DNA of 64,000 bases from Escherichia coli. Lineage in GTDB: Bacteria; Pseudomonadota; Gammaproteobacteria; Enterobacterales; Enterobacteriaceae. The stretch lies in NCBI RefSeq assembly GCF_003334255.1, contig NZ_QOWU01000019.1; one strand, given 5' to 3'. A program made the position numbers and the translations under genes. Shown piece after piece: positions 1 to 5,761 of this stretch; the first letter of the stretch is position 1; the number at the start of each line of letters is the position of its first letter. Below the pieces are notes generated by a model, which made no database searches, was not told the DNA's origin, and saw only the letters and a program-made list of their open reading frames with translations.

Positions 1-270
1 ATGCTTCCATCGGAAACGATGATCTGGCAGCCTGAGTTCACAGATAAAACACTCTCCAGGAAACCCGGGGCGGTTCAAGCTCATTTAAACTATCTGGTCT
101 GTTTCCTCCGGTTCTACAAAAATAGATAGGGGTGCACCTACGTTACCAATACTGGCATCATGGCTACATACGGCGGTCAGTTTACGCTTACTCACCATTC
201 TTTACTTTTTTATAAGCGTCAATAGGTTTGGGATATGACTTTTTCAAGAAGCCAAACTGTTTGGAGTAAG

Positions 271-301
271 CAAAAAAGCCTCCACAAATTGCTGCGGAGG
301 C
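271..301 (-). terminator. Rho-independent terminator-like hairpin downstream of the lut operon
   Basis: GC-rich inverted repeat gcctcc...ggaggc (278-301) followed on the minus strand by a T-run (A6 at 272-277 on plus); lies just past the ykgG stop. Confidence 0.5.
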
Positions 302-398: not shown

Positions 399-1097
399 TT
401 AAGCGCAATCATCAATGATCAAATAGGTTGCATGTACAGGACCATGTACGCCAACAACTTTGATCAGTTCTATATCTGCAGTAGAACTTGGGCCTCCAAT
501 CAGATTTATACAGGACGGCATCCGTTGTCCTTCCTGAGCCATATCATGAAGTTTTTGCGCAAGCTGCGCCACTCTGGGGAGAATGGTGCTTTTACGTAAA
601 ACAAATAATGATGCTTCAGGCAAAAGGCTTACTGAGCGCCCACGTTCTGGTGCGGAGAATAAGACAATGCCTCCTGATTCTGTCAGCCCATACTCAGCGA
701 AAACGACACCAGTTTTTGCCTTTTCAGCAATATGGATATTTTCATCGCCCTTCTCCGGATCCCACAGAGCAGCGCCCATTTCTTTTTGTAGCAATGGCGT
801 AATCCCTGTATCGACCAGTCGTTGATCGTTGCTGATAATGACTGGCCCGGAACCGAACTTCCAACAGATGTCTAAGGCTTTTGATGGTGCGTTTTCAGGC
901 GACACCAGAACACACTCGGCAAGCATCACTTCTGAGGCAAATTTAATAAACGCCTCACAGCGTTGGTCTGATGTCAACTCTGTTAAACGTGTTGTAGCCA
1001 GCGTATTTACAGGCTCCGGCATTGCTTCGGGAATATGTCTTACTGGTCTGCCAAGCTTTCTGGCGATCGCAACGAGAAATTCCTCTCTGTTTTCCAT
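399..1097 (-). CDS. ykgG: Lactate utilization protein C (LutC/YkgG family)
   Basis: Translation resembles YkgG/LutC; start moved from the track's 1151 to the ATG at 1097, which has a strong AAGGAGG RBS 8 nt upstream and sits 4 nt after the ykgF stop. Confidence 0.8.
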   Translation of the reverse strand: MENREEFLVAIARKLGRPVRHIPEAMPEPVNTLATTRLTELTSDQRCEAFIKFASEVMLAECVLVSPENAPSKALDICWKFGSGPVIISNDQRLVDTGITPLLQKEMGAALWDPEKGDENIHIAEKAKTGVVFAEYGLTESGGIVLFSAPERGRSVSLLPEASLFVLRKSTILPRVAQLAQKLHDMAQEGQRMPSCINLIGGPSSTADIELIKVVGVHGPVHATYLIIDDCA

Positions 1098-1101
1098 AAA
1101 A

Positions 1102-2517
1102 TTACCCCTCCTTCTTATGTCGCTTGAACCAACTACGGAAGCTTTCTCCATCAGGTGATGGCAGGTCTCTGGCTTCAGTCCACTCTTTTATCGCTCCAAC
1201 ACTAATCGGCGTTTTTCCTTTCCTGATGAACAGACGGGCTGTTTTGGCCCCAGCAACCATACCTACCTTCCACAACGCCGGATGGCTGTTTATGTAATTG
1301 AATGCTCTGGTTATACGGCGTTCCGTTAATGGTGTGATTTCAGACTCTGCCATAACCTGGCGATGTTTTTGTATTAGCGTTGCCAGAGGTATTTTTACAG
1401 GACATACCCCATTGCAGGCAGTGCACAATGAGCAGGCATAGGGTAAATCCCTAAAGTCTTCATATCCCCCAAGCAATGGGGAAATAACCGCGCCGATTGG
1501 CCCCGGGTAGATTGAACCATAACCATGCCCACCAATCTGACGATAAGCCGGGCAGGTATTAATGCAAGCCCCGCAGCGGATACATCGTAATACATCGCTG
1601 AATTCTGAGCCGAGAATCTCTGAACGCCCATTGTCAACAATAACGAGATGGAACTCTTCCGGACCATCAACATGTCCTTCTTCTCTGGGGCCTGTAAGCC
1701 AGGTGTTATAACCTGTCAGTCTCGCCCCGACAGCACTCCTTGCAAGCATGGTAATCAGAACATCCACCTCCTGGAATGTCGGAGCAATACGCTCCATACC
1801 CATAACAGCAATATGTGTTTTAGGTAATGTGGTGCACATCCGTGCGTTGCCTTCGTTTGTCACAAGGCAAACTGACCCTGTTTCTGCAACGGCAAAGTTA
1901 CATCCCGTTACGCCAACTTCAGCACTCAGAAAATCTTGTCTGATTTTCTCACGGATGAACAATGTCATTGCTTCTGGAGTTTCAGGCCCGTCATACCCCA
2001 GATGTTCATGTAAAACTCTGCGGATTTGATGGCGATCCTTATGTATTGCCGGCACAACCACATGCGATGGCGGCTCATGTGCTAGCTGAAGAATATATTC
2101 CCCAAGGTCCGTTTCAATCACGGGTATCCCGGCTTTCTGAAGAACGGCATTCATGCCAATTTCCTCAGTCACCATTGATTTGGATTTAACAACCTTCCTG
2201 GCGTTTTTTTCTTTCGCCACCTTCAGTATGTAACTGGTTGCATCCTCTCTGGTACGGGCAAAATATACATGCCCGCCATTCGCGGTAACTTTTTCGGACA
2301 ATTGATACAAATAAGCATCAAGATTTTCCAGAACATGCCGACGAATCTGTTCAGCTCGTGAACGCCATTCCTCCCAGTGTCCCAGTTCATCAACCATTTT
2401 CTGTCGATTAGTCCCTATGCGCTCCTGTGCGTTAGCCACAGCTTTTCGCATGATCGGGTCCTGAATCTGAATACGGATACGCTCTTTAAACCTGATATCA
2501 CTTGTTTTCAAAGACAT
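1102..2517 (-). CDS. ykgF: Lactate utilization iron-sulfur protein (LutB/YkgF family), 4Fe-4S ferredoxin-type cysteine motifs
   Basis: 471 aa ORF with CxxCxxCxxxCP cluster motifs (CIRCGACINTCPAY, CSLCTACNGVCP); operon position between ykgE and ykgG. Confidence 0.85.
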   Translation of the reverse strand: MSLKTSDIRFKERIRIQIQDPIMRKAVANAQERIGTNRQKMVDELGHWEEWRSRAEQIRRHVLENLDAYLYQLSEKVTANGGHVYFARTREDATSYILKVAKEKNARKVVKSKSMVTEEIGMNAVLQKAGIPVIETDLGEYILQLAHEPPSHVVVPAIHKDRHQIRRVLHEHLGYDGPETPEAMTLFIREKIRQDFLSAEVGVTGCNFAVAETGSVCLVTNEGNARMCTTLPKTHIAVMGMERIAPTFQEVDVLITMLARSAVGARLTGYNTWLTGPREEGHVDGPEEFHLVIVDNGRSEILGSEFSDVLRCIRCGACINTCPAYRQIGGHGYGSIYPGPIGAVISPLLGGYEDFRDLPYACSLCTACNGVCPVKIPLATLIQKHRQVMAESEITPLTERRITRAFNYINSHPALWKVGMVAGAKTARLFIRKGKTPISVGAIKEWTEARDLPSPDGESFRSWFKRHKKEG

Positions 2518-2527
2518 TCTGTTTACC

Positions 2528-3247
2528 TCATCTGTGCATCAGGACTTCAGCAATATGCATCACTTTTACAGGATGCCCTTCACGGTTAAGCCGACCGCCG
2601 ATGTTTAGCAGACAACTGGCGTCAGCCCCGATAAGAAAATCAGGTTTAACATCCATAATATGCCCAACTTTCTCTTTCACCATTTCACCAGAGATCTCCG
2701 CCATTTTTACAGAGAATGTGCCGCCAAACCCGCAGCACGTTTCCTGAGCGTGAAACGGCAGTAGCTCAAGCCCCTGTACATTCTCAAGTAGCAAAAGCGG
2801 CTCTCTGGTTACACCCAGTTTACGGGAAAGGCTGCAGGAGGGATGGTACACAGCGCGACCATTGAGTTTTGCCCCAACATCTGTGATGCCAAGATGATTT
2901 ACTATAAATGATGTCAAATCATGCAGGCGTTCAGCCACTTTTTCAGCTCGTGCTGCCCACTCAGGTTCTTCACTGAGATAGCGAGCGTAATTTTTTATCG
3001 TGTAAGTGCATGACCCGGCAGGAGATACTACCGGCCAGTCATTCTCTTCCAGCGAAGATATGAGATTTTTCATGCCTGGGATGGCATCACGAACATAACC
3101 GCCATTTATCGCTGGCTGACCACAACATCCCTGCTTTTCGGGGAAATGGACATTGCAACCCAATTGCTCCAGTAACAGCACACTCTTTTGTGCCATCCGG
3201 GATTTAAACGCATCACCAATGCAGGTGACGAAAAAGTTAACATTCAC
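2528..3247 (-). CDS. ykgE: Cysteine-rich (CCG-domain) Fe-S oxidoreductase subunit LutA/YkgE
   Basis: 239 aa ORF, N-terminal MNVNFFVTCIGD and CCG motifs typical of YkgE/LutA; first gene of the ykgEFG-type operon. Confidence 0.85.
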   Translation of the reverse strand: MNVNFFVTCIGDAFKSRMAQKSVLLLEQLGCNVHFPEKQGCCGQPAINGGYVRDAIPGMKNLISSLEENDWPVVSPAGSCTYTIKNYARYLSEEPEWAARAEKVAERLHDLTSFIVNHLGITDVGAKLNGRAVYHPSCSLSRKLGVTREPLLLLENVQGLELLPFHAQETCCGFGGTFSVKMAEISGEMVKEKVGHIMDVKPDFLIGADASCLLNIGGRLNREGHPVKVMHIAEVLMHR

Positions 3248-3296
3248 AGAAATTTCTCCTGTTGATTAATATTCCACGTCCTTTTGTTGTTTTTTC

Positions 3297-4853
3297 TCAG
3301 GCCATGAACAGGTGGTAGACAAGGCCTACTTTCAGTCCAAGAATAACAATATAAGCAAAGCAGTACTTCAGTGTTCCTGACATGATTACGCTGCCCTGAC
3401 CATCCATACGGGTGGCTGAAACAGCGATAGCAATACTCTGAGGAGAAATCATTTTGCCGCCTGTTGCGCCAGATGTATTTGCGGCAGCCAGCCAGAGCGG
3501 GTCCACATGCAATTTTTCAGCCGCAGTGGTCTGCAATTTACCGAACAGAATGTTGGAGTTTGTGTCACTGCCTGTAACAAATGTACCAAGAGCGCCAATA
3601 ACCGGAGCAATGAAGAGGTAGGCTCCACCAGTGAGATCCACAAGGCTTTGTGCCAGAGTGCCAATTAACCCACAAACATCCATTACCGTTGCCATGGCAA
3701 CAATCGCAGAAATGGCAATAATGGAGTTTTTGAGCTGTTTTACCGTACTGATAAATACGTTTAACAGACATGACAGGGATGCTTTTTGTATCAAGCCGCC
3801 AATAACACTGGCAATGATAATCAGAACACCGGGGGTTGCGATCCATTCAATCTTCATCGACAGATTGCTGCCGTTACTCAGAGAGAAACTGAGTGACGAG
3901 GCAATCTGAGACACCGCACTTTTTATCGTCGGGAACAGTGGAGAGCAAAGCAGAATGAACAGAAAAATCAGGATGTAGATTGAGCACGCACGTAACAACG
4001 CCCCACGAGAGTATGAAAGTGCGCTGGCGCTATCTGCTGAAGTATCAATAAGAAATTCAGGTTCTGTTTTTTCTTTACGGTTTTTTGCCATAAAGACTAT
4101 AACGATCAGACTGACAAGACTTCCCGCGAAAGCCGGGAGTTCTGCACCAAGATTAACAGCCACCAGATACTGAGGTATCAATGTGCTGACACCGCACATC
4201 AGGGTAATTAATCCTACGCCTCGTATAGCCTTCATCCCTCCACCGATAATCGCGACGATGACGAAGGGGAGCAGAATGTTGAACAGTGCCAGCTGAAGAA
4301 TAATCGTCCCACTGAGTGTGGTTACAGGCAAATTAACTTGTTCAGCAAGTACAGAGACAGGTATACCGACTGCTCCAAATGCTGTAGGGACTGTATTAGC
4401 AACCAGTGACGCAATTGCTGCTTTTAGTGGGTTAAAGCCCAGTGCAATCAGTATACCAATGGGGATTGCTACAGCTGTACCGTAACCGGCTGCCGCCTCA
4501 AGAAATCCGCCAAAACACCATGAGATAAGAAGTACCTGGATACGCTTGTCATCACTAACGCTCGCCAGAACATTTCTCAGAATATCCATGCTTTTTGTCG
4601 CATTCATCAGGTTATAGCTGTAAATGGCAGCAAGGATAACAATCACAATTGGCCACAAACCTTTGATTGTGCCGTATACCACAGCAGATCCCATATCCAT
4701 AACTGGCGTCTGCCAGAAAACACCCCCAAGGATTAGCGTGATCAGGAGAGTGCTAAGCACGGCATAATGTATGGGCATTTTGACTTTCAGAATCAAAATG
4801 ATCATCGCCAGAAGCGGTGTAAGTCCCAGTAAAAAAAGCAGGTAATCGTGCAT
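3297..4853 (-). CDS. L-lactate permease family (LctP) transporter
   Basis: 518 aa polytopic membrane protein with LctP-family character; directly upstream of and co-oriented with ykgE (44 nt gap). Confidence 0.8.
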   Translation of the reverse strand: MHDYLLFLLGLTPLLAMIILILKVKMPIHYAVLSTLLITLILGGVFWQTPVMDMGSAVVYGTIKGLWPIVIVILAAIYSYNLMNATKSMDILRNVLASVSDDKRIQVLLISWCFGGFLEAAAGYGTAVAIPIGILIALGFNPLKAAIASLVANTVPTAFGAVGIPVSVLAEQVNLPVTTLSGTIILQLALFNILLPFVIVAIIGGGMKAIRGVGLITLMCGVSTLIPQYLVAVNLGAELPAFAGSLVSLIVIVFMAKNRKEKTEPEFLIDTSADSASALSYSRGALLRACSIYILIFLFILLCSPLFPTIKSAVSQIASSLSFSLSNGSNLSMKIEWIATPGVLIIIASVIGGLIQKASLSCLLNVFISTVKQLKNSIIAISAIVAMATVMDVCGLIGTLAQSLVDLTGGAYLFIAPVIGALGTFVTGSDTNSNILFGKLQTTAAEKLHVDPLWLAAANTSGATGGKMISPQSIAIAVSATRMDGQGSVIMSGTLKYCFAYIVILGLKVGLVYHLFMA

Positions 4854-5761
4854 GTCATTTCCTCAAACGAAAACAAAGTCAGCATCATTACTGTGGATAT
4901 TGATAGTCTCCACACCCTGTCGGACGAGAGCGTTTAGTTATCAGGGGGAGAATGAGTATCGCCTCCAAAATTGGGATGTACTTATAAAGTATTTTTTAGT
5001 TTAAAAAATATAGCTGAATCGTTTCATTGTTATCTTCCATGAATAAATGTTATGGAATAATACTTTTTGGGTATTTTTTGTTTATGCTTGTAACACTTGT
5101 GTGCTATCCCGATATAACCTTAAGACTGGAGTTGCAACTGGAGCTCGTCGAAAATCAACGCCCAAATCCTCGACAAATGGAGAAAGAGAATGAGCAATAT
5201 CACCAGGAATAGTTTAGTTGTAGCAGGCGTTCTGGCTTATGGCAGGGAATGTTGCGTTGGCATCTGATGTGCCTACTGAAGTGACTCTAATAGAAAAACA
5301 AACGCTGGTACGTAACAACGGTGCAGAGGTTCAGTCAGAGCAGGACACTGACTGTCGTCTGAGAGGAAGTGGATAAAGCCGGAGCAAGAGAGCCAAATCA
5401 TGATCGATTCGAATGCCAAACTATGATCGATTCAGATGCCATTTTGCAATTAATTTAAAGTTTTATAAAAAACATGACAAAAAATATGTTATATAGTTGT
5501 ATATAAAGTATTATTATCTGAACAGGTTATTATATATTAAATGGAACAGAAGATTATTAATTACTTATCCAGTAATAGCCCTGCAAAATTAGGCGTTTTA
5601 TTGAATGATTTAAATATAACAAAGGAGGTGCATTACTCCGCAACATTAATTTTAGAAGAATTATACACCAGAGAAATGTTGGTGTAATTCTCTTGTGTGA
5701 TAATGTTATACAGAATATGCAAATGTAGTTTACATTTGTCCTGTCTATTCTTATTTGTAAG

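What the first reader, a model, noticed from the sequence alone, without database searches (positions are those of the whole stretch)
399..4853. Lactate permease fused to a lutABC (ykgEFG)-type operon
An LctP-family permease gene directly precedes ykgE-ykgF-ykgG on the same strand (44-nt gap), forming a four-gene lactate uptake/oxidation unit like the Bacillus lutP-lutABC logic. From memory, the K-12 ykgEFG locus has no adjacent permease. This copy sits in the accessory region next to IS debris, so it may be a horizontally acquired, self-contained lactate-utilisation module.
Basis: partly seen in the sequence, partly recalled or inferred. Interest (0 to 1): 0.35.

Follow-up and report, generated by a model that had tools for sequence, protein, structure and literature searches.

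The report
Island-borne lactate uptake and oxidation operon
This is an intact, horizontally acquired four-gene operon (lactate permease plus a three-subunit iron-sulfur L-lactate dehydrogenase) in an E. coli pathogenicity island, giving the strain a second lactate-burning unit with its own transporter; the region is already annotated and described, so it is ordinary.

Summary
On the minus strand lie lctP (4853..3297), lutA (3247..2528), lutB (2517..1102) and lutC (1097..399). The gaps are 49, 10 and 4 nt, and a strong terminator follows at 301..278.

All four proteins pass family or domain tests. They are 77/83/65% identical to K-12 YkgE/F/G. The permease is only 33-35% identical to LldP and GlcA.

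K-12 ykgEFG has no permease. The closest genome carries both the core ykgEFG and this island copy. The intact module occurs in 205 of 5426 complete E. coli genomes, on islands and on plasmids. About 650 more genomes keep only a permease fragment.

Alleles differ by dS up to 0.5, with dN/dS of 0.03-0.11. The same lctP-lutABC order is chromosomal in many Enterobacterales, and no donor is closer than 79%.

A 2022 paper on ST127 UPEC already describes this lutP-lutABC-hsdMSR region, without functional tests.

Two things are new here. An exact Cra (FruR) box lies upstream of lctP. It is conserved across genera, 26 nt from a -10-like hexamer, which suggests gluconeogenic control. K-12 also keeps a 25-codon relic of a lost permease beside ykgE.

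Verdict: real, correctly read, already known; low interest.

The parts
5013..5028 (-). Cra (FruR)-type operator upstream of lctP. The 16-mer is AATGAAACGATTCAGC on the minus strand. The exact 14-mer GCTGAATCGTTTCA occupies 5013-5026 on the plus strand.
   Evidence: It is an exact match to the published Cra logo GCTGAANCGNTTCA (logo cited in PMC8085971 and PMC4323418). It was the only exact match in 64 kb, where 0.30 matches with up to one mismatch are expected. An equivalent box scores 12-14 of 14 upstream of lctP in all 18 promoters sampled across about 16 genera. None of 450 control windows reached 13.
4981..4986 (-). Putative -10 hexamer TATAAG of the lctP promoter, with no good -35.
   Evidence: A -10-like hexamer (TATAAG, TATAAA, TATAAT or TAGAAT) lies 26 nt after the 16-mer box in most genera and 27 nt in Kosakonia; it is weak or absent in Citrobacter, Tenebrionibacter and Proteus. 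The transcription start has not been mapped, so this is inferred.
3297..4853 (-). lctP, an LctP-family (TC 2.A.14) lactate permease of 518 aa.
   Evidence: Pfam PF02652 matches full length at 433 bits. TIGR00795 scores 409 bits against a cutoff of 341. Identity is 35% to LldP and 33% to GlcA. dN/dS among alleles is 0.03-0.09.
2528..3247 (-). lutA (ykgE/lldE-like) Fe-S subunit of 239 aa, with a GTG start.
   Evidence: It has two CCG cysteine-rich domains, is 77% identical to K-12 YkgE, and shows dN/dS of about 0.05.
1102..2517 (-). lutB (ykgF/lldF-like) subunit of 471 aa.
   Evidence: TIGR00273 scores 722 bits against a cutoff of 445. It contains LUD, 4Fe-4S dicluster and LutB_C domains. It is 83% identical to YkgF.
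399..1097 (-). lutC (ykgG/lldG-like) subunit of 232 aa.
   Evidence: It has a LUD domain at E 8e-28, is 65% identical to YkgG over its full length, and shows dN/dS of about 0.1.
268..301 (-). Intrinsic terminator closing the operon: GCCTCCGCAGCAATTTGTGGAGGC followed by TTTTTTGCTT.
   Evidence: The stem has 10 bp with 6 G-C pairs and is followed by a T-run. It is conserved in the 98% and 92% alleles and in Escherichia sp.. No terminator-like site lies between the four genes.
5190..5342 (+). [quoted passage not shown] It is context, not a working part.
   Evidence: RefSeq annotates it as a pseudogene beside lctP in the ST69, pheV and thrW islands. PMC9769692 lists it in the same region.

Best explanation
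This is a self-contained, horizontally acquired L-lactate utilisation operon carried as cargo of E. coli genomic islands and virulence plasmids. The LctP-family permease imports lactate; proton symport is inferred from the family. LutABC, a three-subunit non-flavin iron-sulfur L-lactate dehydrogenase of the YkgEFG/LldEFG type, oxidises L-lactate to pyruvate and passes the electrons to the respiratory chain. All four genes are transcribed from one promoter upstream of lctP and end at one terminator. The module brings no regulator of its own. A Cra (FruR) operator sits just upstream of a promoter with a weak -35, so the host's global regulator Cra most likely activates it when glycolytic flux is low. 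The operon duplicates the core ykgEFG but adds a dedicated transporter, which the core locus has lost. Shown here: gene content, family membership, intactness, purifying selection, accessory distribution, the second core copy, and conservation of the operator. Inferred: substrate, direction of regulation, and any benefit to the host.
For: - **Gene order and signals:** the four genes are co-oriented with 49/10/4-nt gaps, ribosome-binding sites and a terminator.
- **Family tests:** all pass.
- **Orthology:** the enzyme subunits are 77/83/65% identical to K-12 YkgEFG.
- **Enzyme function in relatives:** E. coli YkgEFG behaves as a respiratory L-lactate dehydrogenase under nitrate respiration (PMC9701030). 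C. jejuni Cj0073c-75c has NAD-independent L-LDH activity and sits beside lctP cj0076c (PMC3417520).
- **Selection:** dN/dS is 0.03-0.11 at dS up to 0.5 among four E. coli alleles.
- **Distribution:** the module is intact in 205 of 5426 genomes, on islands and plasmids.
- **Second copy:** the core ykgEFG is also present in the nearest genome.
- **Ancestral arrangement:** the same colinear operon occurs in Edwardsiella, Pectobacterium, Samsonia, Dickeya, Serratia, Proteus, Budvicia and Sutterella, among others.
- **Regulation:** the Cra box is exact and is conserved in position and spacing across genera, far above controls.
Against: - No experiment bears on this copy, so substrate and activity rest on homology.
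- The host already has lldPRD, dld, glcA and ykgEFG, so any added benefit is unproven.
- Core ykgEFG gave no fitness effect in the mouse colitis models tested (PMC9701030).
- About three times as many genomes carry only a permease fragment as carry the intact module, so it is often lost.
- Cra binding and the transcription start are not measured.
- Comparing the geometry with the ppsA promoter was inconclusive.
- The comparative FruR regulon paper does not list lactate genes in its main text.
Confidence: 0.8

Rival explanations
1. The operon is intact, but its physiological substrate is another small 2-hydroxy acid, such as D-lactate or glycolate, rather than L-lactate.
For: The permease falls below the equivalog cut-offs for both LldP (273 bits against 918) and GlcA (243 against 1121), and is only 33-35% identical to them. 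LctP-family carriers in E. coli are annotated as taking lactate and glycolate. LutA also shows homology to GlcF and GlpC.
Against: LutB passes the LutB/LldF equivalog model by a wide margin. [quoted passage not shown] In C. jejuni, D-lactate use was unaffected by loss of the homologous enzyme.
Confidence: 0.1
2. The module is a decaying passenger of islands and plasmids and makes no current contribution in E. coli.
For: About 650 genomes retain only a 0.5-0.8-kb permease fragment flanked by IS debris, for example Nissle 1917. One plasmid copy is interrupted by IS600 (H36). The module is redundant with four core lactate genes or operons.
Against: All four ORFs are intact in every allele class examined. 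dN/dS is 0.03-0.11. The promoter box, ribosome-binding sites and terminator are conserved. The module persists on independent replicons and at independent integration sites.
Confidence: 0.1
3. The conserved palindrome upstream of lctP is not a Cra activator site. It may bind a different LacI-family regulator, or Cra may repress there.
For: LacI-family operators resemble each other. Budviciaceae and Proteus keep only one good half-site. The FruR regulon reconstruction text does not mention lactate genes. The transcription start is unmapped.
Against: The box is a 14/14 match to the Cra logo. It lies upstream of, and does not overlap, the predicted -35/-10. By established knowledge (Saier and Ramseier 1996, recalled) that arrangement is associated with Cra activation. 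Lactate is a gluconeogenic substrate, like the products of the Cra-activated genes ppsA and fbp (PMC9948231).
Confidence: 0.3
4. The permease-ykgEFG arrangement is simply the normal E. coli core locus, and K-12 is the exception.
For: None was found. K-12 does keep a 25-codon permease relic next to ykgE, showing an ancestral linkage.
Against: About 5150 genomes have ykgEFG at about 71% nucleotide identity to the island copy, while only about 220 records hold the island type. No E. coli core-type permease beside ykgE was found using a Citrobacter lctP probe. The ST69 genome has a permease-less core locus plus the island copy.
Confidence: 0.01

Closest known systems
The lutP-lutABC-hsdMSR accessory region next to intA and tRNA-Phe in UPEC ST127 and other sequence types (PMC9769692)
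   Same: It has the same gene set and neighbours: the peptide ABC substrate-binding fragment, lutP, lutABC and a type I restriction-modification system. This layout appears in the pheV and thrW islands fetched here.
   Different: In the window the hsdRSM side has been replaced by IS elements, and the module sits deep in a hly/iha island. The paper made no functional, regulatory or evolutionary analysis.
E. coli core YkgEFG (LutABC/LldEFG-type respiratory L-lactate dehydrogenase)
   Same: It has the same three subunits, domain content and order, at 77/83/65% amino-acid identity.
   Different: The core locus has no permease (only a 25-codon relic), has no Cra box (best 11/16), has higher GC3, and is near-universal rather than present in about 4% of genomes.
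Chromosomal lctP-lutABC operons of other Enterobacterales (Edwardsiella, Pectobacterium, Samsonia, Serratia, Proteus and others)
   Same: They share the same four genes in the same order and orientation and the same upstream Cra-like box.
   Different: These are core chromosomal loci in their species. The nearest is only 79% (permease) to 85% (LutB) identical, so none is the donor.
Campylobacter jejuni lctP (cj0076c) with cj0075c-cj0073c, Shewanella lldP/lldEFG, and Bacillus lutP/lutABC
   Same: They follow the same logic: an LctP-family carrier linked to a LutABC-type NAD-independent L-lactate dehydrogenase (PMC3417520; PMC9701030).
   Different: They are distant in sequence. Bacillus uses a dedicated regulator, LutR (recalled, not tested here), whereas this module carries no regulator gene.
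Plasmid module lctP-dld-ykgEFG of pFec10 and Klebsiella/Raoultella plasmids (PMC7984374)
   Same: It is another mobile lactate-utilisation module found in E. coli.
   Different: It is a different lineage. Its lutABC shows about 71% nucleotide identity to the island lutABC. Its permease is 80-90% identical at the nucleotide level to Citrobacter lctP, against 68-70% for the island permease. It also includes dld and has a different arrangement.

Membership tests
LctP family lactate permease (TC 2.A.14; Pfam PF02652; TIGR00795) | Full-length match to the family profile above the curated cut-off | tested here: met
   TIGR00795 scores 409.2 bits against a cutoff of 341.15, covering residues 2-511. 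PF02652 scores 432.6 bits over residues 7-510.
LldP or GlcA equivalogs of E. coli | Score above the NCBIfam equivalog cut-off | tested here: not met
   NF007740 scores 273 bits against 918. NF007249 scores 243 bits against 1121. Identity is 35% and 33%. It is therefore a separate LctP-family paralogue, not a copy of LldP or GlcA.
LutABC / LldEFG / YkgEFG L-lactate dehydrogenase | LutA subunit with two CCG cysteine-rich domains | tested here: met
   PF02754 matches twice, at residues 3-85 and 133-216. Identity to YkgE is 77%.
LutABC / LldEFG / YkgEFG L-lactate dehydrogenase | LutB subunit with a LUD domain, a 4Fe-4S dicluster and the LutB C-terminal domain, above the equivalog cut-off | tested here: met
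   TIGR00273 scores 722.2 bits against 444.8. PF02589, PF13183 and PF11870 all match. Two CxxCxxCxxxCP motifs are visible in the sequence.
LutABC / LldEFG / YkgEFG L-lactate dehydrogenase | LutC subunit with a LUD domain, encoded directly after lutB | tested here: met
   PF02589 matches at E 7.9e-28. Identity to YkgG is 65% end to end. The gap after lutB is 4 nt. No NCBIfam model hit this protein.
LutABC / LldEFG / YkgEFG L-lactate dehydrogenase | NAD-independent oxidation of L-lactate to pyruvate | not testable with these tools
   This is inferred from homologues only (PMC9701030; PMC3417520).
Cra (FruR) regulon | Operator matching GCTGAANCGNTTCA in the promoter region | tested here: met
   An exact match lies at 5013-5026. 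Orthologous promoters score 12-14 of 14, against at most 12 in 450 control windows.
Cra (FruR) regulon | Cra binding, and Cra- and fructose-1-phosphate-dependent expression | not testable with these tools
   No data could be obtained. The literature searched does not list lctP or lutABC as Cra targets.
Genomic-island or plasmid cargo (accessory genome) | Patchy distribution, several integration sites or replicons, flanking integrase or IS elements, and atypical composition | tested here: met
   The module is in 205 of 5426 genomes and 61 plasmids. It occurs in pheV and thrW islands with integrases and is flanked by IS debris. GC3 is 0.40-0.46.

The most novel reading that the evidence does not exclude
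The island operon is a Cra-activated, LldR-independent route for L-lactate uptake and respiration. It would give ExPEC and STEC a measurable fitness gain in lactate-rich host sites such as urine, inflamed gut, blood or CSF. More broadly, Cra would directly control lactate catabolism across Enterobacterales, a regulon member not listed in the literature searched.
Probability: 0.3. Interest if true: 0.45.

Novelty: already known. Interest (0 to 1): 0.22.

Why it matters
Lactate is abundant in inflamed gut, urine and blood, and respiratory lactate use aids E. coli, Salmonella and Campylobacter in vivo. A mobile operon that travels with haemolysin, iha and STEC plasmid virulence genes could be a small metabolic fitness factor, because it restores the dedicated permease that the core ykgEFG locus has lost.

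The conserved Cra operator suggests how a regulator-less acquired operon plugs straight into the host's carbon-flux sensing.

None of this changes the classification. The genes are routinely annotated, the arrangement is common in other bacteria, and the region has been reported before.

Tried and rejected
1. **Donor search.** A scan of one genome per species (100,044 species) with the permease found nothing closer than 79% outside Escherichia. The donor remains unknown.
2. **Synteny of the Citrobacter locus with K-12.** I tested whether the 285-aa neighbour of lctP in Citrobacter is RclR. It is not. Only the lctP relic and the ykgE promoter region support the link between the two loci.
3. **Cra box at the core locus.** I looked for one upstream of K-12 ykgE and found none (best 11/16).
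4. **Geometry against ppsA.** I compared the box-to-promoter geometry with the Cra-activated ppsA promoter. A box is present (2 mismatches), but without a mapped transcription start the spacing comparison was inconclusive.
5. **Prior reports of Cra control.** Literature searches for Cra/FruR control of lctP or ykgEFG found nothing.
6. **The pheV-island evolution paper.** PMC11537424 does not mention lactate or restriction genes.
7. **The generic sigma-70 scan.** It gave no more promoter-like sites than shuffled sequence (7 against 9.8), so I did not rely on it.
Full report
**1. Observation**

The span 399-4853 holds four co-oriented minus-strand ORFs:
- a 518-aa permease at 4853..3297;
- a 239-aa protein at 3247..2528, with a GTG start;
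- a 471-aa protein at 2517..1102;
- a last ORF that runs from 1151 as listed, but that RefSeq starts at 1097 (232 aa). That start aligns end to end with K-12 YkgG.

The gaps are 49, 10 and 4 nt. The 49-nt gap has an AGGAG ribosome-binding site and no terminator. A strong intrinsic terminator (10-bp stem, 6 G-C pairs, T-run) lies at 301..278 on the same strand, about 100 nt after lutC. It is conserved in other alleles.

**2. Identity of the genes**

- **Permease.** It passes the LctP family model (TIGR00795, 409 bits against 341) and Pfam Lactate_perm (433 bits, full length). It fails the LldP and GlcA equivalog cut-offs and is only 35% and 33% identical to them. It is a third LctP-family paralogue, not a copy of either.
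- **LutA.** It has two CCG domains.
- **LutB.** It passes the LutB/LldF equivalog (722 bits against 445) and has LUD, 4Fe-4S dicluster and LutB_C domains.
- **LutC.** It has a LUD domain.

Against K-12 YkgE/F/G the identities are 77, 83 and 65%, and about 71% at the nucleotide level.

**3. Core or accessory**

K-12 ykgEFG lies between rclR and ykgH with no permease.

A sensitive search with the island lutABC finds a ykgEFG-like locus in about 5150 of 5426 complete genomes at 60-80% identity. Only about 220 records hold the island type at 80% identity or more. The full four-gene module is intact (at least 80% coverage) in 205 genomes, on chromosomes and plasmids, and in 61 PLSDB plasmids, all E. 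coli.

The window is colinear at 99.4% identity with the chromosome of an ST69 O15:H18 CSF isolate, from window 78 to 28009. There the module sits in an island with hlyCABD, iha and much IS debris. That same chromosome has an intact, permease-less core ykgEFG between rclR and ykgH.

About 650 further genomes, including Nissle 1917, keep only a 0.5-0.8-kb internal permease fragment between IS remnants.

**4. Ancestral island layout**

In a pheV island (strain 2009C-3133) and a thrW island (strain SW071611) the order is: integrase, fragment of a peptide ABC substrate-binding gene, lctP-lutABC, type I hsdRSM. On a plasmid of STEC O178:H19 the module lies near espP.

This is the region reported in UPEC ST127 as 'lutABCP/hsdMSR' next to intA and tRNA-Phe. 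That paper also found it in ST1485, ST40, ST117, ST1266 and ST95, and only hypothesised a role for lactate (PMC9769692). In the window the hsd side has been replaced by IS sequence to the left of position 78.

**5. Selection and origin**

Four alleles were compared: the window, a 98% allele, a 92% allele and a 90% plasmid allele. They differ by dS of 0.03-0.67 but by dN/dS of only 0.03-0.11 for all four genes. The operon has therefore been kept functional over a divergence far larger than I would expect for E. coli core genes (recalled, not measured here).

GC3 is 0.40-0.46, against 0.49-0.53 for K-12 ykgEFG.

A scan of one genome per species found the same colinear lctP-lutA-lutB-lutC order as a chromosomal locus in many genera:
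- Edwardsiella, Samsonia, Pectobacterium, Dickeya, Mixta, Kosakonia and Serratia;
- Proteus, Budvicia, Pragia, Leminorella and Limnobaculum;
- Sutterella, outside the order.

Citrobacter has lctP divergent from lutABC. The best non-Escherichia identities are 79% for the permease and 85% for LutB. The arrangement is thus ancestral and ordinary in the order, and the donor is not among sequenced species.

**6. How it most likely works**

By homology, the permease imports lactate. LutABC then oxidises L-lactate to pyruvate without NAD and feeds the respiratory chain.

Support for the enzyme comes from E. coli YkgEFG, whose mutant shows a defect with L-lactate plus nitrate but not with D-lactate (PMC9701030). 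It also comes from the C. jejuni Cj0073c-75c enzyme, encoded next to lctP (PMC3417520).

The module encodes no regulator. Upstream of lctP, however, there is an exact match to the Cra logo GCTGAANCGNTTCA at 5013-5026 (logo from PMC8085971 and PMC4323418).

The same box is present upstream of lctP in every genus examined, scoring 12-14 of 14. By comparison, 450 random 300-nt windows from the same loci mostly scored 9-11, and none reached 13. In most genera the 16-mer is followed after exactly 26 nt by a -10-like hexamer (TATAAG, TATAAA, TATAAT or TAGAAT), with no good -35. The spacing is 27 nt in Kosakonia, and the hexamer is weak or absent in Citrobacter, Tenebrionibacter and Proteus. This places the operator centre near -46.5, just upstream of the -35 position.

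Cra is known to activate gluconeogenic genes such as ppsA and fbp (PMC9948231). From established knowledge (Saier and Ramseier 1996, recalled) it activates when bound upstream of the polymerase site. I therefore infer Cra-dependent activation when glycolytic flux is low, with a probability of about 0.55-0.6. A check against the ppsA promoter found its box but could not settle the geometry without a mapped start.

**7. Relation to known systems**

This is a member of the LctP plus LutABC/LldEFG/YkgEFG kind of lactate utilisation operon. All sequence-level defining features were tested and met. Enzyme activity and Cra binding could not be tested.

It is distinct from a second mobile module, lctP-dld-ykgEFG of the Klebsiella/Citrobacter type. 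That module is described on pFec10 (PMC7984374) and occurs in about 110 E. coli genomes.

**8. Verdict**

The finding is ordinary, for three reasons. The genes are named by the standard annotation pipeline. The arrangement is the norm in related genera and in Campylobacter. This exact accessory region has been published.

The conserved Cra operator and the permease relic in K-12 are modest additions. Interest is 0.22; novelty is 'already known'.

Noticed in passing
L002 9070-9144 (K-12 NC_000913.3 about 321069-321143), minus strand, between rclR and ykgE: There is a 25-codon relic of an LctP-type permease, 80% identical to Citrobacter LctP residues 334-358 (E 3e-8; nucleotide bit score 42.8 against at most 28.3 in 100 shuffles). 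It lies in the orientation expected for a divergent lctP. The E. coli core ykgEFG locus therefore seems to have lost a permease that Citrobacter still has.
   Followed up: partly
E. coli genomes and plasmids, e.g. NZ_CP148376.1 5148-7130 and NZ_CP159644.1: A second, unrelated mobile lactate module (lctP-dld-lutABC, Klebsiella/Citrobacter type) occurs in E. coli. About 110 genomes show 80-90% nucleotide identity to Citrobacter lctP. It is common on Klebsiella and Raoultella plasmids and matches the pFec10 description (PMC7984374).
   Followed up: partly
L088 6003-6512 (Nissle 1917) and about 650 other complete genomes: A 0.5-0.8-kb internal fragment of the island permease (about 92.5% allele) survives between IS remnants in many ExPEC-type genomes. 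Degraded copies outnumber intact ones by about three to one.
   Followed up: partly
window 3297-4853 compared with 1102-3247: The module is a mosaic. Between the window and the thrW-island allele (L085), lctP has dS 0.15 while lutA and lutB have dS 0.03-0.04. This suggests a recombination breakpoint inside the operon.
   Followed up: no
window 24542-25723 (-) and 25894-26713 (+): A tyrosine integrase directly abuts ulaE. ARAGORN finds no tRNA gene anywhere in the window. The ulaE reading frame matches its family profile only from about position 29-34. The island therefore appears to be inserted in the ula operon rather than at a tRNA.
   Followed up: partly
window 9424-11514 (-) and 16467-24260 (-): Other island cargo includes the iha siderophore receptor/adhesin (1617 bits to its equivalog). 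There is also a cluster of a ferric-type ABC transporter, a UhpC-like sensor/transporter, a UhpB-like kinase and a response regulator.
   Followed up: no
window 5029-5053 (-), just upstream of the Cra box: A second conserved block, ATAACATTTAnT, is shared by divergent E. coli alleles and resembles ATAATCA(T/A)TT in Budviciaceae promoters. It may be another regulator site, possibly ArcA-like TGTTA repeats on the other strand. This was not tested.
   Followed up: no
window 1-77 compared with L001 19665-19913: To the left of position 78 the window carries the end of an IS3-family (IS1203-like) element. The closest genome instead has a remnant of the type I restriction hsdR gene at that place. The source strain therefore differs from NZ_CP102488.1 at this junction.
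   Followed up: no
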